Below are positions 20,042-61,700 of a stretch of DNA of 64,000 nt, one piece after another. Source of the stretch: the human T2T-CHM13v2.0 reference genome, Homo sapiens; the NCBI RefSeq assembly GCF_009914755.1, contig NC_060926.1; one strand, given 5' to 3'. Position 1 is the stretch's first letter, and each line of letters starts with the position of its first letter. The position numbers were made by a program, and so were the translations under genes. The notes beneath the pieces were generated by a model that did no database searches, had not been told where the DNA came from, and saw only the letters and a program-made list of their open reading frames with translations.

Positions 20042-20840
20042 TTATAGTCCACAGCAAACAATAAAAACAAACCTTGAAGAGGGAGAAGAATCTGATTTCC
20101 ATAGTTACTACATTATATGTAAAAAATGTCCAGTTTTCAGCAAAAATTGCAAAGCGTACAAATAAAAAACTATGACACAAAGAAGAAATTATCAGAAACC
20201 GAGGAAGCCCTGACATTGGATTTACTAGAAAAAATTAAGTATCTCAAAGAGTTAAAGAAAACTAAGAGAATAATATCTGAACAAATAGAGAATATCAATA
20301 AAGAGATTAAAATTGTGAAAAAGAACCAATCAAAATCTGGAGCTTAACAATACAATAACAGAAGTGGCAAACTCACTAGAAGGTTCCAGTGGCAGATTTG
20401 AGTGGGCTGAAGAAAGAATCAGTGAACTTGAATACAAGTCAATTAAAGTTATCTAATCTGAGGAGTAGAGAGACATAAAAATGAAGAAAAATGAAACTTG
20501 TATGACACCATTAGCATACCAATATATACATCATAGAAATCCAAGAAGAAATATAGAGAGATAAAGGGGCAGAAAGAATATTTAAAGAAAGAATGCCTGA
20601 AAACTGTGAATTTGATAAAAGACATGAATCTATACCTTTAAGAAGTACATTCAACTCCAAGAAGGAAGAACTCAAAGAGATCCACAAGGAAACATATTAT
20701 AATAAAATTGTTGGAAGGAAAAGCAAAAGAGTGAATTTTGAAAACAAAAAATAAGTGACTCATAATATAAAATGGATCTTCAATAATATTAGCAGCAATA
20801 TTCTCATTAGAAACCTGGAGGCTAGAAGGGAGTGGGATGG

Positions 20841-21191
20841 TGTATAGTTCATTTTTACACTGCTATAAGGAACTACCTGAGATTGGGTAATTTATGAAGA
20901 AAAGAAGATCAATTTACTCAGTTCTGCAGGTGAAGCATGACTGGGAGGCTTCAAGAAACTTACATTCATGGTGGAAGTTGAAGGGGAAACGAGGACCTTC
21001 GCATGGTGGCAGGAGAGAGAGATCAAGAGGGGAATTGCCACACACATTTAAACCATCAGATCTCATGAGATCTCACTATCATGAGAACAGCAAGGGGGAA
21101 ATCCACCCCCCATGATCCAGTAACCTTCTACCAGGCCCCTCCTCCAATTCAACATGACATTTAGGTAGGGACACAAATCCATACCATATTG
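20841..21191 (-). mobile_element. MaLR solo LTR (THE1D/MSTA-like)
   Basis: tgtatagttcattttt..acactgctataaggaactacctgagattgggtaattta...gacacaaatccataccatat; 5-bp TSD gatgg (20836-20840, 21192-21196). Confidence 0.88.
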
Positions 21192-21538
21192 GATGGCATT
21201 TTTAAAGTGCTAAGTGAAAAAAAAGCGTCAACCAAGAATTCTTTATTCAACAAAACTAAGCTTGTTTCAAAAATGAATGAGAACATAAGACATTCCCAGA
21301 TAAACAAAATGTTGTTGCTAATAGAACTATCCTACAAGAAATAATAATGATGGTCTTTCAAGCTGAAATAAGATGTCACTTGACAGTAATTGGAAGGCAT
21401 ATAAAAAAACTAAACAACCCTCATAAACATAACAATGTAGGTAAATGTAAATGCCAGTGCTATTGTATTTTTGGTCTGTAACTCCTCTTTCTATTGTCTA
21501 TATAATAAAAGATAAATTTATAAAATGATAATTCTGTC

Positions 21539-21733
21539 TACGTCAATGGGTATATAGTATAAAGTTGTAATTTATGACAATAACAAGGTAAAGGAAAGTG
21601 ACAGAGCTGTAGGTTAGCAAAGTTTTTGTATGCTATTGAAGCTTAGTTGGTATAAATTCAAACTAGAGTTTTATAAATTTAGAATGTTAATTGTAGTCAT
21701 CCTGATAATCACTAAGAATATGGCTAATATATA
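21539..21733 (+). repeat. Left arm of a 195-bp inverted repeat (native L1 inter-ORF sequence)
   Basis: Ungapped reverse complement of 23078-23272, with 6 mismatches by manual count. Confidence 0.97.
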
Positions 21734-23077
21734 TGTGTATATATATGTATATATGTATACGTATTATATATGTATAATATGTATATATGTATATATTATG
21801 TATATGTTATATATGTAATATATGTATGTATATATTATATATCATATATAATATATAATGTGTATATATGTATATATGTATGTATACATGTATATACTAT
21901 GTATATATTGTATATATTATATATGTATATATACATATACATATATAATATATACATATATTATATACAATATATACATGTATATTATATACGATATATA
22001 CATATATATTATATACAATATATACATAGTATATAAATGTATACATACATACATATATACATATTATATATGTATATATGTATACATAAATGTATATATA
22101 ATATATATACATATATAAATGTATACATACGTACATATACGTATATGTATATGCATATATGTATATATGTGCATACATATATATGTATATACATATATGT
22201 ACATATGTACATATACGTATATATGTACATATGTACATATACGTATATATGTACATATGTACATATACGTATATATGTACATATGTACATATACGTATAT
22301 ATGTACATATGTACATATACGTATATATGTACATATGTACATATACGTATATATGTACATATGTACATATACGTATATATGTACATATGTACATATACGT
22401 ATATATGTACATATACGTATATATGTACATATGTACATATACGTATATATGTACATATGTACATATATACGTATATATGTACATATGTACATATACGTAT
22501 ATATGTACATATGTACATATACGTATATATGTACATATGTACATATATACATATATATGCATATACATATATATGCACATATATACATATATGTGCATAT
22601 GTACACACATATATGCACACATACACATATATGTACACACATGCATGCACACATACACATATATGTACACACATGCATGCACACATACGTATATATGTAC
22701 ATACATGTATGTGCACATACGTATATATGTACATACATGTATGTGCACATACGTATATATGTACATACATGTATGTGCACATACGTATATATGTACATGC
22801 ATGTATGTGCATATACGTATATATGTATATGCATGTATGTGCACACGTATCTACATATATGTACATATATACGTATATATGTATCTACATATATGTACAT
22901 ATATACGTATATATGTATCTACATATATGTACATATATACGTATATATGTATCTACATATATGTACATATATACGTATATATGTATCTGCATATATGTAC
23001 ATATATACGTATATATGTATCTGCATATATGTACATATATACGTATATATGTATCTGCATATATGTACATATATACG
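21734..23077. repeat. 1.34-kb AT-rich alternating purine-pyrimidine microsatellite/VNTR with 26-, 32- and 34-bp sub-arrays
   Basis: (TA/CA/TG)n matrix; unit acatatgtacatatacgtatatatgt at ~22195-22540, gcacatacgtatatatgtacatacatgtatgt at ~22680-22810, gtatct(a/g)catatatgtacatatatacgtatatat at ~22847-23084. Confidence 0.97.
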
Positions 23078-23272
23078 TATATATTAGCCATATTCTTAGT
23101 GTTTATCAGGATGACTACAATTAACATTCTAAATTTATAAAAATCTACTTTTAATTTATACCAACTAAGCTTCAATAGCATACAAAAATTTTGCTAACCT
23201 ACAGCTCTGTCACTTTCCTTTACCTTGTTATTGTCATAAATTACAACTTTATACTATATACCCATTAACGTA
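23078..23272 (-). repeat. Right arm of the 195-bp inverted repeat (inverted copy of L1 sequence)
   Basis: Reads as the reverse complement of 21539-21733; ORF track shows [25 protein letters not shown] (+) vs [25 protein letters not shown] (-). Confidence 0.97.
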
Positions 23273-23699
23273 TATAACATATATATATTATATATACATA
23301 CAAAGGATGACATTATATGTTAATAAAAAAGTCAATTCATCAAGAAGATATAACAATTTTAAATACATAAGCAACAAACAACAGAGTCCTAAGATATATG
23401 AAGCAAACATTGTCAACATTCAAGGGAGGAATAGATAATTGTATAGTAATAGTTGGAGACTTCAATGTCTTATTTTTCATAATGAGAAAAAAATCTAGAC
23501 AGAAGTTTAAGAAGAAAACATAAGATTTGAACAACTCTATATAACAACTAGACCTAACAAATATATAGAATACTCCACCCCACAATAGCAGGAGATATGT
23601 TATTTGCAAGTCACATGAAACATTTTCCAGGACAGATCATATTTTGTGCCACAAAAAGTCTCAACGAATTTAAAAAGATTGAAATAATAAAAAGTATCT

Positions 23700-23764
23700 C
23701 CGCGCCACTGCACTCCAGCCTGGGCGACAGAGCAAGACTCCATCTCAAAAAAAAAAAAAAAAAA
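23700..23764 (+). mobile_element. Severely 5'-truncated Alu (3' ~46 bp plus poly-A)
   Basis: cgcgccactgcactccagcctgggcgacagagcaagactccatctc(A)18; approximate TSD aaaaagtatct / aaaaagatct. Confidence 0.9.
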
Positions 23765-25923
23765 GATCTTATCTGGCTACAATGGAATAAAACTAGAAAT
23801 CAATAGCAGAAAGAAAAATGTAAAATGTACCAATACATGGCAAGGAAACAACAAATTCTTAACTAGCCAATGAGCCAAAGAAGAAATCACATGTGGAATT
23901 TGAAATACTTTGAGACAAATAAAAATAAAAACAACATAGAAGAACTATAGAATGCAGAGAAGGCAGTGCTGAAAGCAAATGTATAGCTATAAATACTTAC
24001 ATTATAAAAGAAGAAAGATCTGAAATCAAAAACCAAACTTTATACTTAAGGATCAAGAAAAATAAAGGAAAACTAAGCCCAAAGCTAACAAAAGGAAGGA
24101 AATAATAAAAATTAGACCGGAAGTTAATTAAATATGAAAACAATAGAGAAAATTAATAAACCCAATGTTTTACTCCTTAAAAAAAGACAAAATTGACAAA
24201 TCTTTAGCTATAATGACTAAGAAAAAAACAGAGAAGACACAAGTAACTAAAATCAGAAATAATAGTGAAGACATTACTGTTGATCTTATAGAATTAAAAG
24301 AGATTATAAGATAATGTTCTGAATGATTGTATGCCAACAAATTAGATAAATGATGAAATAAACTGCAGGGAGTATTCAAATTGCATAAAATGATCCTAGA
24401 AGATCTTAGACCTATATTAAGTAAATAATTGAACCAGTAATCAAAAACTTCCAACAGAGGAAAGTTGAGGACCAGAGAGTTTGATTGGTGAATTGTAACA
24501 AACATTTAAAAAGTAATTAACACCAAATTTTCTCAATCATTTCCAAAATATAGGAGTTGAAAGCACTTTCCAATCATTTTATGAGGCCTGTATTACCGAT
24601 ACCAAAGCTAGGCAAAGACTATTCATTATAAATATAGATTTATCCTAGGAATGCAAGAGTAGTTCAAAATAAGAAAATAATCAATTATAAGACCTCATAT
24701 TTATAAAATGAAGGAAAAATCCACATGATGATCTCTATTGGCGAAAGAAAAGCATTTGACAAAATTCAGCACGCTTTCATGATTAACACACTGAGAGAAC
24801 AAGAATAAAACACATCTTCTTTAATGTGAAAAAAGGTATTGATGAAAAACCTGCAGCTACCATGATAACCAATGGTGAAAGACCGAAAGCTATACTGCTA
24901 AATTGAGGAACAGGGTAAATACGCACATTTTTATGAGTGCTGTTCAATATTGTCCTGGAAATTCTAGCCAGAACAATTAACTAAAAAAAAGAAATAAAGA
25001 ATTGAAAAGTAAGAAGTAAAACTCTCTCTATTTGAAGATGACATGATTGTATATATACAACATTTCTGACTTTCCACAAAAAGCTACTATAGATAATAAA
25101 CATTCAGTATGTTGTAGTGTACAAGATCTATATGCAAAAACCAGTTGTTTCTATATACCAGCAACGAACAATGCTGTAAGAAAATTATGAATAGAATTCC
25201 ATTTACAATAGCATTCAAAGAATAAAACAACTAGAAACAAAAAAGCACAGGAAAGTGAAAGACTTGTTCACTGAAAACTACAAAATAGTGCGGAAAGAAA
25301 TTAAAGAAAAGCTAAGTAAATGCAAAGACATCTCATGTTCATGCATTGGAGGAGTTAATATTGTTAAGATGCCATTACTAACCAAAGTGATCTACAGATA
25401 CAATTCAACTCATATCAAAATTCCAATGACCCTTTTTGCAGAAATGAAAAAGCATATCCTCAAGTTCATGTGGAAATACAAAGGCCCCTAAATATGTAAA
25501 ACAATGTTTTAAAAGAATTACAAACTCATGCTTCCTGATTTCAAAACTTACTACAATGCTACAGTAACCAAAATAGTGCAGTAGTGGCATAGAGTAGACA
25601 TATAAACTAATGGAATGGAATTAAGAGTCGACACGCAAAACCATACGAATATGGTCAATTGATTTTGAACAAGAAGGCCAAGACGATTCAGTAAGAGTGC
25701 CAAGACTCTTTAACAACTGGCACTGGGACAATTGCATATTTACCTGCAAAAGAATACGGTTTTACTTTTACCTTACAACAAATACAAATATGAAATAAAA
25801 ATAGGTCCATGACTTAAAGAGCTAAAACCACAGATCCCCTAAAAGAAAATGTAAGAGTAAATCTCAATACACTCGAATTTGGAAATGGACTTTTGGTATA
25901 ATGCCAAAAGTATGAGCAAAAAA

Positions 25924-26015
25924 ATATTATATGTATATATTATATATATATTATATATATACATGCACAAGCACACGTATACATATATATGTATGTGTAT
26001 GTGTGTATATATATA
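25924..26015. repeat. (TA/CA/TG)n low-complexity microsatellite inside L1
   Basis: atattatatgtatatattatatatat...gtgtgtatatatatatg. Confidence 0.85.
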
Positions 26016-26382
26016 TGACTTCATCAAAATTAAAATTTTGTGCATTAGGGAAACCATCAAGACAGTAAAAAGAGTATGCACAGAATGGGGAAAAATATTT
26101 GAAGGTTGTGTTTCTGACAATGGTCTGCCATCCAGAATATATAAAAAATACCTACAAGTCAACAACAAAAAGACAAGCAGCCCAATTTTAAAAATGGGTA
26201 AAAAACTTGAATACACATTTCTCTAAAAATATACAAATGGCCAGTGGCACATGAAAAGATGGTCAACATTATTTGTCACTAAGGAAAAGCAAATCAAAAC
26301 CACCATGCAATGCCTCTTCTCATTCCCAAGGATTGCTACAGTAATAATATAGATTTTATAAAAAAAGGGGGAATAACAAGTA

Positions 26383-26745
26383 CAATTGGTTCTCCAAATC
26401 TATGAGCACCAGAGGACTGGATTCAATTAACTTCACATCAAAAATATTTGGAAAAAAAATTCTACAAAATTCTGAAAAGCAAAACTTTCATTTGCTCTGC
26501 ATCAAGCACTATGTTGAGTCCACGCAATTAAAGTGCTGTGTAGGCATTCTATTCAGTGCTATAAATAATCTAGGGATGATATAAATATATGAGAAAATGT
26601 GCATAGTTTACATGTAAATGTGGTGCCATTTTATATAAAAGACTAGTGGATCCCCAGAGTTTGGTATCTGGGCATGGGGTCGTGGGGGAAAGAGAATGGG
26701 GGTAGGTCCTGGAACCAATCCTTCACAGATATCAAGAAATTATTT
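26383..26745. mobile_element. Tigger3 (Golem/MER7-type) TcMar DNA transposon
   Basis: Degenerate TIRs caattggttctccaaatc ... gtcctggaaccaatccttcacagatatcaagaaatt; inserted at TA within L1 aataacaagta|ttaccaaggatgt. Confidence 0.8.
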
Positions 26746-27739
26746 TATTACCAAGGATGTAGAGAACCATTAACATTGCTCATGGGAACGAAAAATGGTG
26801 CTGCCACTGAGGAAAATATTTTGGGGGTTCCTCAAAAAGTTAAACATAGAATTATCATATGACCCAGCATTTCTACTTTTAGGTATATGCCCCCTGAAAT
26901 TAAAAACAGGCACTCAAATACTTACTTGTACCTGAATATTCTTGGCAGCACTATTCATAATAACCAAAAGATGAAAGTAACCCAAATGGCCATTAAGAGA
27001 TGAGTGGAGAGAAAATTTATGTTATATACATATGATAAAATATTCTTCAGCTGCAAAAAGGGAATAACGTTATTGATACATGCTACAACTTAGAGGAACC
27101 AAAAAAAAAAAATCCAAGTGAAAAGAAAACAGAGACAAAAGGGGATATGTTCTATGATTCCATTTGTATAAAATATTCAGGATATATAAATCCATCGATA
27201 CAGAATGCGGATTCATAGTGTCAGAGGCTGGGGGAATGAGGGAATGATGAGTAGCTGCGTAAAGGGTTTGAGATTTCTTTTGGGGGTGACAAAACTATTT
27301 TGGGATGAGACGAACATGGCAGTTGCACAGCATTTTAAATATACTAAATGCCATTGACTTTTCACTCTAAAATGTTTAATATTATATTATAAGTAATTCA
27401 CCTTAACGATGTGGTAGACAAACTAATGTAACTTAACATATGTATGTGTGTGTGTGTGTATATATATTTTTTAAAGAAAAAAGAAGGACAATATAGTTAT
27501 TAAACTAAATATACATATATATACACATTTCAAAAGGAAAGGAGAAAAGGGAATCAAACTAATAATAAAAATTAATATTCCCTTCACTAATAGGCCCACT
27601 CATGCCAACATTAACTTATGCATATTCTTTTTAAATTCTGAAATACGAAGTGAAAGAGTGAAATTATAAAGGCACTCAAGAATTTCAGGTCTAATTAAGT
27701 AACATTCATTTGTGAATGCAAAATAATTTATTTCTTTTC

Positions 27740-35661: not shown

Positions 35662-35997
<336 letters not shown>

Positions 35998-58765: not shown

Positions 58766-61700
58766 GCCAAAGAGGTTTCCCAGATTTACGACTGGGCATA
58801 TACTTCTGGGTGCTTGGTGGTGCCACCCACTGGAGCACCCTTGGCACTGTGCTTGTGCCTGCCATCCATAGAGGTTCCGTAGGTATGCTGGCCAGGTCCA
58901 TCCACATGCAACTTGCTACCTGCCTCCCACCCAACCAAGTGGCTGAGCAAGGCGCTCAGATCACTGTACACTTCATGGATCAGCCCCACTGTATAAGGCA
59001 ACAGAGACCTTCCCCTGTAAACAAGGATTAAGTATACACCCGACCACTTTGGCCATAACAGATCTTACTCATAAGTGCCGTCTACTGGCTTATCTATTGA
59101 ACTGCACAGCAAAAGTGCTCAGGGCTATAGGAGTAAAGCCAATAGGCCCTACCCAACATTGTCTACATTCACACCACCTAGGGAAGGGGAAGAAGGGAAA
59201 GAGAAAACAAAAATATTTGAGAGAAAGAAAGAAAAGAAAAAAAAACTGATCCAAATGAAAATAATTGCAAAAATTAGAAGTGCTGGCATCTCTAAATGAG
59301 AAGTAACTAGCCCAAGAATTCTGGCACCATGAAAAATGTGAATGTAGTGACACCACCAACGGATTATACCAGCTCTACAGCAATGTTGCCTAAACAAAAT
59401 GGAAACTCAGAAGTGACAGATAAAGAATTAAAAGTATGGACTACAAGAAAGCTCAGAAAGATCCAAGAGAAGGTTGACAATCACCACAAAGAGACTTCTA
59501 AAAAACCCAGGAAGTGAAGGAAGATAAATATATTTAATAGAAATCAGTTAGAGCTTCTGGAATTGGAAAACTTACTTAAGAAATTTCAAGATATAATTGA
59601 AAGCCTTATTAATAGACTAGATCAAGCAGAAGAAAGAATTTCAGAGCTTGATGGCCGTCTTAGCAAAACAAAAATAAAGAAAAAAGAATTTAAAAAAGTG
59701 AACAAAGTTTCTGAGAAAAATGAGATTATGTAATGTGACCAAACCCACAAATTATTGTTATTCTTAAGAGAGAAGGAGAAAAAAATAAACAACCTAGAAA
59801 ACATTTGAGAGAATAATTTAAGAAAATTTTTCTAATTTTGCAAAAGAGGTAGACATTGGGTTATAAGAAATCCAGAGAATGCCTGCAAGGTACTATACAA
59901 AATCAGTATCACCAAGGCATATAGTCACCAGATTGTGCAAGGTCAGTGCTAAAGAAAAAATCTAAAAGGCAGCTAGAGAAAAAGGTCAGATCATCTACAA
60001 AGGGAAACCCATCAGGCTAATGGCAGACTTCTCAGGAGAACTCTTACAAGCCAGGAGAGATTAGGGGCCTATTTTCAGCATTCTTAAAGAAAATAAGTTC
60101 CAACCAAGAATTTTATATTCCACAAAACTAAGCTTCATAACTGAAGAAGAAATAAAATATTTTCCAGACAAGCAAGCACTAAGGGAATTTGGTACCACTA
60201 AACCAGCTTAACAGGAAATACTTAAGGTAGTTCTAACATGGAAATAAAATAGTAATACCTCCTACCACAAAAACAGAATTAAGTATATAGCCCACAGACT
60301 CTATAAAGCAACCACACAATAGAATCTACAAAGTAATCAGCTACCAACTTCATGACAGAATCAAAATCTCACATATCAATATTAACTTTGAATGTAAACA
60401 GTCTAAATACTTTACTTGACACAGAGTGGCAAGTTGGATTAAAAAAAAAAAGACCTAACCCTCTGCTGTCTTCAATGTCACATGTAACAACACCTATAGA
60501 CTCAGAGTAAAGGGTTGGAGTCACATGTCACATGTCTCCATGTCACATGTAACAACACCTATAGACTTAAAGGGTTGGAGAAACCCTATCATGCAATTGG
60601 GAAAAAAAGAAAAAAGAGCAGGAGTCATGATTCTTACATGAGATAAAACAGACTTTAAACCAATAGCAGTAAAAAAAAAGGACAAAGAAGGGAGTTACAT
60701 AATGATAAAGGGTTCAATCCAACAAGAGAACGTGTATATCATAAATATATATGCACTCAATATTGGAACACCGAGATTCATAAAATAAGAACTTCTAGAC
60801 TACAAAAAGATGAGCTAGCAACAAAATAATAGTGAGAAATTTTACCACCCCACTGACAGTGTGACACTGAGGCTGAAAACTAGCACAAAATTCTGGACTT
60901 AAATTGGACACTTGACAAATTGGACCTAATAGACATCTATGGAATCCTCTGCTTATCAACCAAAAAATATACATCCTTCTCATCTGCACACAGAACACAT
61001 GTTTGGTTATGAAGCACATCTCAATGCATACAAAAAAAACTGAAATCATACTAAGCATACTCTCAGACTACAGTGAAATAAAAATAGAAATTAATAACAA
61101 GCAGATATTGCAAAACCACACAAGCACATGGAAAATAAACAACTTGCTCCTGAATTACTTTTGGGAAAAACACTGAAATTGAAGCAGAAATCAAAATACT
61201 CTTTGTAACTAGTAAAAACAGAGACATATACCAAAATATCAAGTATACAGCAAATGCAATGTTAAGATGGATGTTTATAACACCAAACACCTACACCTAC
61301 ATCAAAAAGTTAGAAAGATCTCAAAGTAGCCATCTAACATTGCACATAGAGGAACTAGAAATACAAGAAAAAACGAACTCCAAAGCTAGCAGAAGAAAAG
61401 AAATAACTAACATCAGAACTGAAAAAAATTGAGACCCAAATATCCAAAGAATCAACAAAACCAACAATTAATTCTTTGAAAGAATAAACAAGATTAATAT
61501 ATCTTTATCTAGATTAACAAATAAATAAAGGGAGAAGATCCAAATAAACAACTCAGAAATGACAAAGGTAACATTACAACCAATCACACAGAAATACAAA
61601 AGATCTTTAGAGACTACTATGAACATGTCCATGCACACAAAATAGAAAATCTAGTAGAAATGAATAAATTCCTTCAGATACACAAACCTACCAGGATTGA

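What the first reader, a model, noticed from the sequence alone, without database searches (positions are those of the whole stretch)
21539..23272. 1.7-kb fold-back structure: 195-bp near-identical inverted arms clamping a self-complementary VNTR inside an old L1
Seen: 21539-21733 and 23078-23272 are ungapped reverse complements with only 6 mismatches (~97%), although the host L1MB is heavily decayed. The left arm is native L1 inter-ORF sequence and the right arm is an extra inverted copy. After a short TA stub the L1 resumes at ~23301 within the ORF2 endonuclease region (caaaggatgacattatatg...), so several hundred bp of L1 are missing. The right arm ends in ACGTA, a motif that recurs throughout the array. 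Inference: synthesis folded back inside the palindromic microsatellite, copied the flank in reverse, and switched back at ACGTA microhomology. The result resembles a palindromic AT-rich repeat (PATRR). It could extrude a large hairpin or cruciform, undergo recurrent inversion of the spacer, homogenise its arms by gene conversion, or form a long dsRNA stem if transcribed.
Basis: partly seen in the sequence, partly recalled or inferred. Interest (0 to 1): 0.85.

Follow-up and report, generated by a model that had tools for sequence, protein, structure and literature searches.

The report
Inverted flank duplication around AT-rich minisatellite
An old, dead L1 element on human chromosome 2 carries a real 195-base inverted copy of its own sequence on the far side of a 1.3-kb hairpin-prone AT-rich repeat array, most likely a one-off replication template-switch scar with no sign of function.

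Summary
21539-21733 and 23078-23272 are ungapped reverse complements with 6 mismatches in 195. This is the only high-identity inverted repeat in the 64-kb window, and the two arms are the only copies at 97% or more in the genome.

The host is a decayed + strand L1. ORF1 lies on the left, and ORF2 resumes at residue 94 at about 23301. About 0.4 kb of L1 is missing.

Against 28 paralogous L1 copies, both arms share 25 non-majority bases in 181 informative columns. Each arm also keeps the majority base at sites where the other has changed. So the right arm is a real, late copy of this element's own left flank. It is neither an assembly artefact nor a second L1.

The best mechanism is a single fold-back or inter-strand template switch at a self-complementary TA tract: four-point type 3-2-1-4, with a 195-nt copied fragment and a 0.4-kb skip. 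Arm divergence alone suggests roughly 13-31 Myr.

It is not a PATRR. It has a 1,344-bp spacer, 72-78% AT, and a core that is only 86% self-complementary. I found no evidence of function. It is a new member of a known kind.

The parts
20606..20824 (+). L1 ORF1 RNA-binding (RRM-like) domain remnant of the host element
   Evidence: Pfam PF02994 Transposase_22, E 1.4e-05, 25.8 bits against a cutoff of 22.4. PDB LINE-1 ORF1p chains 2ldy and 2ykp, E 5e-06 to 7e-06, query residues 69-141 of a translation that starts at 20402.
21260..21361 (+). Weak remnant of the C-terminal part of L1 ORF1, so ORF1 ends about 150-200 nt before the left arm
   Evidence: A second, non-significant stretch aligned to ORF1p near its C-terminus, query residues 287-320. 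A weak BLAST match at 76% to another L1 fragment at 60090-60175.
21539..21733 (+). Left arm: native L1 sequence between ORF1 and ORF2, and the template of the duplication
   Evidence: 195 nt with 6 mismatches to the right arm. It aligns to 28 paralogous L1 copies at 69-78% identity. It carries the derived base at 21544 and 21668. AT content 71.8%.
21734..22133 (.). Degenerate, older-looking left part of the array. A TG-type run (21734-21933) is followed by a CA-type run (21934-22133), so the motif polarity flips at about 21933.
   Evidence: TG/CA counts per 40-nt bin. 21734-21933 against the reverse complement of 21934-22133 scores 106 (163 of 189 identical), against 61-95 for ten other comparisons; this is suggestive only. 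Self-complementary block 21843-22080 at 83%. AT content 86.5% over 21734-22141.
22142..22571 (.). Self-complementary core of the array, including 12 exact copies of a 26-nt unit (22212-22543)
   Evidence: 430 nt at 86% self-complementarity with no spacer. Single-strand DNA fold of -159 kcal/mol against -109 +/- 4.6 for 100 shuffles, z = -10.9. Twelve exact units. Two units in tandem (<=2 mismatches) occur nowhere else in the genome: 9 of 9 hits are here.
22572..23077 (.). Right part of the array: a CA-rich stretch, then 32-nt units (3 exact, 22682-22777), then 34-nt units (4 + 2 exact, 22848-23051) running up to the right arm
   Evidence: Exact unit counts, Tandem Repeats Finder rows, sequence.
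23078..23272 (-). Right arm: the extra, inverted copy of the left arm
   Evidence: Reverse complement of 21539-21733 with 6 mismatches. It shares 25 non-majority bases with the left arm and carries the derived base at 21622, 21659 and 21663. Its orientation is opposite to the host L1.
23273..23300 (.). 28-nt stub (93% AT) between the right arm and the resumed L1. It may be array-derived or decayed L1; this is unresolved.
   Evidence: Sequence, AT content. No clear L1 homology in an alignment with 13 paralogs.
23301..23655 (+). L1 ORF2 endonuclease remnant, resuming at residue 94 of human ORF2p
   Evidence: PDB 1vyb, 8sp5 and 8sxt, E about 3e-21; query residues 2-118 align to chain residues 94-211. 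Thirteen paralog alignments start at window 23289-23314. Five stops in these 118 codons.

Best explanation
This is a one-off mutational scar inside a dead L1. During replication or replicative repair, a nascent strand stalled at a short self-complementary TA-rich tract that lay just after the L1 segment now at 21539-21733. Its 3' end folded back on itself, or switched to the opposite strand. It then copied 195 nt of that flank in reverse and switched back to the original template about 0.4 kb further on.

The immediate product was a 195-nt inverted duplication, coupled to loss of the end of the inter-ORF region and the first 93 codons of ORF2. In the four-point template-switch model this is type 3-2-1-4.

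The event happened when the L1 had already decayed by about 14%. Arm divergence of 3.1% puts it very roughly at 13-31 Myr, in ape or Old World primate ancestry.

The TA-rich centre has since grown and turned over by slippage, and probably by further small fold-backs, into a locus-private 1.3-kb minisatellite of 26-34-nt hairpin-forming units. That growth pushed the arms apart, which makes the palindrome tolerable.

Today the locus has no detectable function. Double-stranded, the arms are too far apart to extrude a cruciform. Single-stranded, the whole 1.7 kb can fold into a clamped, branched hairpin, so it is a weak candidate site for replication stalling and length polymorphism.

Shown: the anatomy, the source of the copy, its late date relative to the L1, and the folding potential. 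Inferred: the template-switch mechanism, the single-event coupling with the deletion, the later growth of the array, and the absolute date.
For: 1. The repeat is real and unique.

2. The copy came from this element and was made late. In an alignment with 28 paralogous L1 copies, both arms share a non-majority base in 25 of 181 informative columns.

3. Differences accrued on both arms. The left arm is derived at 21544 and 21668, the right arm at 21622, 21659 and 21663, and 21709 is ambiguous. The right arm keeps the family-majority base where the left has changed, which an assembly fold-back artefact could not produce.

4. The boundaries fit a copy-and-return event. L1 homology of the left flank ends at 21691-21739 in all 22 paralogs that have both hits, which is where arm identity ends (21733-21742). 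L1 resumes at 23299-23301, ORF2p residue 94. The skipped L1 interval is about 0.4 kb: median 403 in 12 paralogs, with 5 of 12 between 354 and 409.

5. The arm's inner end runs into a self-complementary TA run that both arms share. The outer end is a TACGT word, and ACGTA occurs 28 times in the array.

6. The mechanism class is documented. Type 3-2-1-4 (with its mirror case 1-4-3-2) creates an inverted repeat and made up 31% of high-confidence human-chimp events (PMC5453318, passages). Template switching of a leading strand at short inverted repeats, followed by secondary changes that widen the spacer until the arms no longer destabilise, is described in PMC10766186 (passages).

7. The array is young and private. 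It has 12 exact 26-nt units, and the dimer of that unit is found only here (9 of 9 hits).

8. Folding. As single-stranded DNA, 187 of 195 arm nucleotides pair with their mirror partner and 1,167 of 1,344 array nucleotides are paired, MFE -594.8 kcal/mol. The core has z = -10.9.
Against: 1. No outgroup or population data could be reached, so neither the ancestral state nor the date is observed.

2. The present spacer is not a mirror image about the arms' axis. Ungapped complementarity there is 47.6% against a median of 34.9%, ranking 272 of 1,201 axes. A simple fold-back with a large copied spacer therefore leaves no trace. Only 9 nt beyond the L1 boundary are mirrored.

3. Microhomology at the return junction cannot be read, because the 28-nt stub is 93% AT.

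4. The deletion could be a separate event tied to the array.

5. 195 nt may be long for a short-range template switch. The study I read kept events with a copied fragment of 14 bp or more, but the passages I saw give no upper size.

6. Four of the 6 differences are transversions, and three sit within 10 nt (21659-21668). This is odd for neutral decay. It could mean error-prone copying, which would make the true age lower than estimated.

7. The absolute dates rest on mutation rates I recalled (0.5-1.2e-9 per site per year), not on any call. The Poisson interval on 6 differences is 1.1-6.7%.
Confidence: 0.6

Rival explanations
1. Double-strand-break repair rather than a replication template switch. 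A break in the fragile TA tract was resected, and either a hairpin-primed fill-in or the capture of a 195-bp fragment of the neighbouring flank in reverse orientation by end joining produced the inverted copy. The 0.4 kb was lost by resection.
For: The end product would have the same anatomy. The array folds strongly and is the kind of sequence expected to break. AT-rich minisatellites are reported to stall replication and to suffer deletions (PMC2875025, passages).
Against: The copy starts exactly at the L1/TA boundary and continues 9 nt into shared TA sequence. That is what priming from a fold-back predicts, and a captured free fragment would match it only by coincidence. Nothing in one genome separates hairpin-primed repair synthesis from a fork template switch, so the two overlap.
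Confidence: 0.2
2. The inverted repeat is much older than its 3% divergence suggests, and the arms have been kept alike by gene conversion (concerted evolution), as in large genomic palindromes.
For: Shared non-majority bases (25 of 181) are expected under homogenisation as well as under a late duplication. Three of the six differences cluster within 10 nt, which could mark the edge of a conversion tract.
Against: The arms are only 195 nt, with a longest identical run of 77 nt. I recall that efficient mammalian recombination needs roughly 200 bp or more of identity; I did not look this up. The differences are split 2: 3 between the arms, as under simple divergence. No data from other species were available.
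Confidence: 0.1
3. Assembly or sequencing artefact: a fold-back chimeric read built into the assembly.
For: Palindromic TA-rich regions are hard to sequence (PMC4940405, passages).
Against: At 21544 and 21668 the right arm carries the base held by most of the paralogous L1 copies (23 of 27 and 19 of 26 paralogs with a base in those columns), while the left arm carries a changed base. A copy made from the present left arm by a read artefact could not restore the family-majority base twice. The arm is also joined to 28 nt of unique stub and to the correct continuation of the L1.
Confidence: 0.02
4. The structure arose at L1 insertion (twin priming or 5' inversion), or from a second L1 fragment inserted in reverse.
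For: L1 insertions are known to carry internal inversions (recalled, not looked up).
Against: Both L1 flanks are in the same orientation and collinear, ORF1 on the left and ORF2 on the right. Independent L1 copies are 69-78% alike in this segment, whereas the arms are 97% alike and share 25 private changes.
Confidence: 0.01

Closest known systems
Short-range template-switch mutations, four-point model type 3-2-1-4 / 1-4-3-2 (Loytynoja & Goldman 2017, PMC5453318; passages read)
   Same: [quoted passage not shown] The class is documented in human lineage evolution.
   Different: The fragment here is 195 nt with a 0.4-kb skip, and the spacer is now 1.3 kb. The published scans target short mutation clusters (copied fragments of 14 bp or more; the passages I read give no upper size). 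No ancestral sequence was available here to run that test.
Palindromic AT-rich repeats (PATRR11, 22, 17, 8 and others; PMC4940405 and PMC1851657, passages read)
   Same: AT-rich, palindromic, hairpin-prone, probably length-polymorphic, and hard to sequence. A 430-nt spacer-free quasi-palindrome sits in the middle of the array.
   Different: PATRRs are >90% AT, near-perfect and spacer-free. Here the arms are 72-74% AT and 1,344 bp apart, and the core is 78% AT and only 86% self-complementary. No translocation breakpoint is known here. The PATRR sites named in the passages I read are on chromosomes 11, 22, 17, 8, 4, 1, 3 and 9, not 2p.
AT-rich hairpin-forming minisatellites of rare fragile sites (FRA16B, 33-bp unit; PMC2875025, passages read)
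   Same: Units of 26-34 nt, AT-rich, with strong predicted secondary structure. About 40 units by the Tandem Repeats Finder 34-nt row, which is more than the 7-12 copies reported for normal FRA16B alleles.
   Different: Fragile FRA16B alleles have up to about 2,000 copies. The unit sequence here is different and contains CpG and TGTACA words. No cytogenetic fragility is known here. FRA16B is not described as flanked by an inverted duplication in the passages I read.
Widely spaced inverted repeats (Alu-IR model in yeast; PMC10164571, passages read)
   Same: Arms of a few hundred bp, 94-100% alike, with a kilobase spacer. Such pairs are nearly inert in duplex DNA but anneal efficiently once single-stranded, giving fold-backs and dicentrics.
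   Different: Those are pairs of independent transposon copies or engineered constructs. Here the second arm is a local copy, and the spacer is itself self-complementary.
Genome-wide 'inverted duplicates' catalogue (PMC5398296, passages read)
   Same: The same formal object: two reverse-complementary arms and a spacer. 4.3 million were found in human and they are enriched in repeats.
   Different: The 80th percentile of arm length there is 36 nt, and spacers were capped at 1,000 nt. This one (195 nt arms, 1,344 nt spacer) lies in the long tail and outside that catalogue's spacer limit.

Membership tests
PATRR (palindromic AT-rich repeat) | Greater than 90% AT content | tested here: not met
   Arms 71.8% and 73.8%, array 78.3%, core 78.1%, left part of the array 86.5%. 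Definition from PMC4940405.
PATRR (palindromic AT-rich repeat) | Nearly perfect palindrome without a spacer | tested here: not met
   The 97% arms are 1,344 nt apart. The spacer-free core 22142-22571 is only 86% self-complementary.
PATRR (palindromic AT-rich repeat) | Several hundred bp in length | tested here: met
   Arms 195 nt, core 430 nt, whole structure 1,734 nt.
PATRR (palindromic AT-rich repeat) | Lies at a constitutional translocation breakpoint, and size polymorphism affects breakage | not testable with these tools
   No population or breakpoint data. The locus's lncRNA name occurs in 0 papers.
Template-switch inverted repeat (four-point type 3-2-1-4) | A fragment copied in reverse complement from nearby sequence of the same locus | tested here: met
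   The arms share 25 of 181 private (non-majority) bases against 28 paralogs. Only two copies at 97% or more exist in the genome.
Template-switch inverted repeat (four-point type 3-2-1-4) | Order of switch points: copied fragment upstream of the leaving point, return point downstream | tested here: met
   Native arm 21539-21733, copy at 23078-23272, L1 resumes at 23301 after a skip of about 0.4 kb.
Template-switch inverted repeat (four-point type 3-2-1-4) | An ancestral or outgroup sequence lacks the copy and explains the region in one event | not testable with these tools
   The genome tool states there are no relatives for this genome.
LINE-1 (host element) | ORF1 RNA-binding domain followed, on the same strand, by the ORF2 endonuclease | tested here: met
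   PF02994, E 1.4e-05. ORF1p chains, E 5e-06. ORF2p endonuclease chains, E 3e-21, residues 94-211.
LINE-1 (host element) | Reverse-transcriptase domain | tested here: inconclusive
   Pfam found 0 families in the three frames of 24202-27203. RT-like strings are visible by eye at 24940-24981 and 25025-25060 in the translations. 8sxt aligns only to residue 315.
   No repeat library was available. Pairwise identity of 69-78% to paralogs fits an old mammalian L1 but names no subfamily.
FRA16B-type AT-rich fragile minisatellite | AT-rich unit of about 33 bp with a stable secondary structure | tested here: met
   Units of 26, 32 and 34 nt; core fold z = -10.9. Definition from PMC2875025.
FRA16B-type AT-rich fragile minisatellite | Expansion to hundreds or thousands of copies, with cytogenetic fragility | tested here: not met
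   About 40 units by the 34-nt Tandem Repeats Finder row. Fragility itself is not testable.
TA/TG-repeat-derived microRNA families (mir-297, mir-466, mir-1277, mir-3149, mir-568, mir-5014) | Score at or above the Rfam gathering threshold | tested here: not met
   Best scores: 68.9 against 101 (mir-5014), 60.7 against 90 (mir-297), 59 against 85 (mir-466), 54.5 against 81 (mir-1277). Of 206 hits with E <= 1, 150 were listed and none of those reaches its threshold.

The most novel reading that the evidence does not exclude
The locus is a young, primate-specific palindrome caught partway through being tamed. A fold-back first created a near-perfect, almost spacer-free palindrome that behaved like a PATRR. 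That palindrome has survived only because its centre kept breaking and re-growing as a private hairpin minisatellite. Possible traces are the polarity flip at about 21933 and the nested self-complementary blocks. If so, the locus should still be hypervariable in length and perhaps in spacer orientation among humans. It would act as a replication-stalling or breakage site, and, as part of a lncRNA intron, would yield a 190-bp double-stranded RNA stem.
Probability: 0.15. Interest if true: 0.55.

Novelty: new member of a known kind. Interest (0 to 1): 0.3.

Why it matters
This is a clean, datable natural example of a large template-switch inverted duplication (195 nt copied, 0.4 kb skipped). Because it sits inside a repeat family, its paralogs can be used to polarise every difference between the arms without an outgroup. 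That internal control shows the duplication is real and late.

The locus also shows what a palindrome can look like after millions of years: arms intact, centre replaced by a private hairpin-forming minisatellite.

If it proves polymorphic or fragile in humans, it would be a useful test site for how spacer growth stabilises palindromes. If not, it is an inert scar in the intron of a lncRNA, with no other gene within 100 kb (hub annotation). Nothing here suggests a function or a link to disease.

Tried and rejected
- **Mirror-image spacer.** I tested whether the whole spacer mirrors itself about the arms' axis. It does not: 47.6% ungapped complementarity, rank 272 of 1,201 axes. Only certain bins, which are in register with the 26-nt unit, rise to 62-84%.
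- **Nested palindrome in the left part of the array.** This is only suggestive. The inverted alignment scores 106, against 61-95 for ten control comparisons. The polarity flip is the better sign.
- **Pfam on the ORF2 side.** It gave 0 families for the endonuclease stretch and for all three frames of 24202-27203. The endonuclease was recovered only by searching solved structures.
- **A second copy of the inter-ORF segment in the window.** None was found.
- **L1 homology in the 28-nt stub.** An alignment to 13 paralogs showed no clear homology.
- **Rfam.** Only sub-threshold hits to repeat-derived microRNA families, which I take to be a composition effect.
- **Mini-survey of look-alike arrays.** The 22-nt core of the unit occurs 54 times in the genome, 21 of them here. 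Of about 18 other loci I could examine 8, with 1.5-kb flanks. None of the 8 has an inverted repeat of its flanks, and all are 90-500 bp of TA-dense sequence, against about 1,630 bp here. The own locus, used as a positive control, was detected. The sample is small, and the flanks are too short to see widely spaced arms.
- **Literature.** The lncRNA name occurs in 0 papers. I made no search by genomic coordinate.
- **Supplements.** I opened none, so event-size distributions given in the supplements of PMC5453318 may bear on whether 195 nt is unusual.
Full report
**1. The observation**

21539-21733 and the reverse complement of 23078-23272 align without gaps over 195 nt, with six mismatches at 21544, 21622, 21659, 21663, 21668 and 21709.

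- The repeat finder lists the same pair, stretched to 249 nt at 90%.
- BLAST gives 204 nt at 96.1%, so identity runs 9 nt past 21733 into the array.
- Outside the outer ends, complementarity drops to background: 20 of 50 positions.
- With low-complexity filtering on, this is the only inverted match of >=90% identity and >=80 nt in the 64-kb window, out of 11 inverted matches.
- A whole-genome search with 21400-21733 returns two places at 97% or more, the arms themselves. The other 38 scored places are 69-78% identical (345 candidates, 40 scored, so the counts are lower bounds).

**2. The host element**

On the left, one reading frame of 19142-21739 matches the L1 ORF1 RNA-binding domain (PF02994, E 1.4e-05). 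It also matches LINE-1 ORF1p chains (E about 5e-06), with a weak second stretch near the ORF1 C-terminus at about 21260-21361.

On the right, 23302 onward matches the human L1 ORF2p endonuclease with E about 3e-21, starting at residue 94. Both parts are on the + strand.

The element is badly decayed:
- there are 76 stops in the 1,300 codons of one frame after 23302, five of them within the 118-codon endonuclease match;
- Pfam finds nothing on the ORF2 side;
- paralogous copies are only 69-78% alike.

I could not test the label L1MB.

**3. Which arm is native, and how much is missing**

The genome search brought in 28 paralogous L1 pieces with 1.5-kb flanks (L003-L030).

- The left flank aligns to all of them. 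In the 22 that also have a right-flank hit, the left-flank alignments end between 21691 and 21739. L1 homology therefore ends where the arm ends and the array begins.
- Thirteen paralogs align to the right flank from window position 23289-23314 onward, seven of them starting exactly at 23300.
- In the 12 paralogs whose matches reach both junctions, the interval between the two junctions is 64, 199, 354, 382, 385, 397, 409, 538, 694, 725, 730 and 799 bp. The median is about 403. I take the larger values to be later insertions and the smaller ones deletions; I did not check this.
- Independently, 93 missing ORF2 codons account for 279 bp.

So the left arm is native sequence between ORF1 and ORF2, the right arm is an extra inverted copy, and about 0.4 kb of L1 is gone.

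**4. When the copy was made, and whether it is real**

In a MAFFT alignment of both arms with the 28 paralogs, 181 arm columns have a clear paralog majority. In 25 of them both arms share a different base. The right arm was therefore copied from this very element after it had already drifted about 14% from its family.

The alternative is that the two arms have been homogenised ever since; this is a rival explanation below.

The six differences polarise as follows:

| Site | Derived arm | Paralog counts |
|---|---|---|
| 21544 | left | majority base in 23 of 27 |
| 21668 | left | majority base in 19 of 26 |
| 21622 | right | 19 of 26 support the left-arm base |
| 21659 | right | 19 of 26 support the left-arm base |
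| 21663 | right | 16 of 26 support the left-arm base |
| 21709 | unresolved | neither arm has the majority base |

Changes on both arms, with the right arm twice keeping the family-majority base, rule out a fold-back read artefact. They also rule out a second, independent L1.

Arm divergence is 3.1% (Jukes-Cantor 0.0314; the Poisson interval on six differences is 1.1-6.7%). With recalled primate rates of 0.5-1.2e-9 per site per year, that is about 13-31 Myr, with wide error.

An internal clock agrees in order of magnitude. About 1.5% per arm, against about 14% of shared earlier decay, puts the event in roughly the last tenth of the element's residence.

One caution: four of the six differences are transversions and three lie within 10 nt. 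Some may be copying errors, which would make the event younger.

**5. The spacer**

21734-23077 (1,344 nt, 78% AT) is a composite array:

- The left 400 nt is degenerate and 86.5% AT. Its motif polarity flips at about 21933: TG-type bins come before that point and CA-type bins after it. Slippage alone cannot produce such a flip. The inverted alignment of the two halves is the best of eleven comparisons, but not by much (106 against 61-95).
- Next come 12 exact copies of a 26-nt unit (22212-22543).
- Then a CA-rich stretch.
- Then three exact 32-nt units.
- Then six exact 34-nt units in two variants, running up to the right arm.

Two tandem 26-nt units occur nowhere else in the genome: 9 of 9 hits are here. 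The higher-order repeat is therefore private and recent.

The array is self-complementary in blocks: 22142-22571 at 86%, 21843-22080 at 83%, and 22862-23053 at 82%. It is not a mirror image about the arms' axis.

ACGTA occurs 28 times by direct count in the array; the window holds 42, of which 13 lie outside the array.

**6. Folding**

- As single-stranded DNA, the 1,734 nt fold to -594.8 kcal/mol. 187 of 195 left-arm nucleotides pair with their mirror partner, and 1,167 of 1,344 array nucleotides are paired, in three hairpin domains.
- The 430-nt core folds to -159 kcal/mol, against -109 +/- 4.6 for 100 shuffles (z = -10.9).
- As RNA in the orientation of the lncRNA, 190 of 195 arm positions pair, with an uninterrupted run of 83.

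These are potentials, not observations.

**7. Mechanism**

The anatomy is A-B-[TA array]-B'-stub-D, with C missing. [quoted passage not shown]

The likely trigger is the self-complementary TA run shared by both inner arm ends. A nascent 3' end made of such sequence can pair with itself or with the opposite strand.

The ODIRA paper describes leading-strand switching at short inverted repeats. It also describes later changes that widen the interruption until the arms stop being destabilising (PMC10766186, passages). That fits the idea that the centre grew afterwards.

I cannot show three things: that the deletion and the duplication were one event, that ACGTA microhomology guided the return, or how large the TA tract was at the time.

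**8. Comparison with known kinds**

*PATRRs.* These are several hundred bp, >90% AT, near-perfect and spacer-free (PMC4940405). [quoted passage not shown] This locus fails the AT and no-spacer criteria.

*Yeast Alu inverted repeats.* Raising the spacer from 12 to 100 bp cut recombination 300-fold in duplex DNA, and a 1.5-kb spacer cut gross rearrangements 31-fold. In long single-stranded DNA, spacer length stopped mattering (PMC10164571). The arms here should therefore be nearly inert in duplex DNA and relevant only when the region is single-stranded. The self-folding spacer may help by bringing them together; this is my inference.

*FRA16B-type minisatellites.* The array itself resembles these in unit size and hairpin potential, but it is far below the copy numbers associated with fragility (PMC2875025).

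*Inverted duplicates in general.* They are abundant in the human genome, at 4.3 million, with an 80th-percentile arm length of 36 nt (PMC5398296). This one is unusually long-armed but not of a new kind.

*Arrays sharing the 22-nt core motif.* Among 8 others that I could examine, none has a flank inverted repeat and all are much shorter.

**9. Verdict**

- The fold-back template-switch origin is the best reading, at about 0.6. Break repair (0.2) and long-term gene conversion (0.1) are the live rivals.
- The PATRR comparison and the predicted behaviours (cruciform extrusion, recurrent inversion, RNA editing) are not supported by anything I could test, and the first is contradicted by the defining criteria.
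- There is no sign of function.
- The locus lies in an intron of one predicted transcript of LOC105374827, with no other gene within 100 kb (hub annotation). The lncRNA name occurs in no paper of the library.

Noticed in passing
window 20850-21195 (approx.): The L1 ORF1 remnant is interrupted between its RRM-like part (ends about 20844) and its C-terminal part (resumes about 21229) by roughly 350 nt. This stretch translates into a long, nearly open, unrelated reading frame and looks like another interspersed repeat inserted into the L1. I did not identify it.
   Followed up: no
window 23698-23766: A short Alu-like fragment with an A-rich end sits inside the L1 endonuclease remnant. It matches many places in the window at 81-97% identity (for example 35697-35758 at 97%) and caused spurious right-flank hits in several paralog loci.
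   Followed up: partly
window 25924-26010: A second, small TA/TG/CA microsatellite lies inside the same L1 further downstream in ORF2. Part of it resembles the 28-nt stub (31 nt at 87%). It has no flanking inverted repeat in the window-wide scan.
   Followed up: partly
window 22036-23086, both strands: 206 sub-threshold Rfam hits to microRNA families that themselves derive from TA/TG palindromic repeats (mir-5014, mir-297, mir-466, mir-1277, mir-3149, mir-568). None of the 150 listed reaches its gathering score. The array units are therefore shaped like the precursors of such repeat-born microRNAs.
   Followed up: partly
window 21541 and 23269: Each arm keeps a single CpG, at its outer end inside the TACGT word, where most paralogous L1 copies have TG. 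The array itself holds about 28 CpGs inside ACGTA words, which is unusual for old AT-rich human sequence and fits a recent expansion.
   Followed up: no
G000 C2:215.619 Mb, C20:31.032 Mb, C7:9.739 Mb, C8:123.591 Mb and about 14 other places: Other small arrays in the genome share the exact 22-nt core of the unit: 33 of the 54 genome hits lie outside this locus. The 8 I examined are 90-500 bp of TA-dense sequence without flank inverted repeats.
   Followed up: partly
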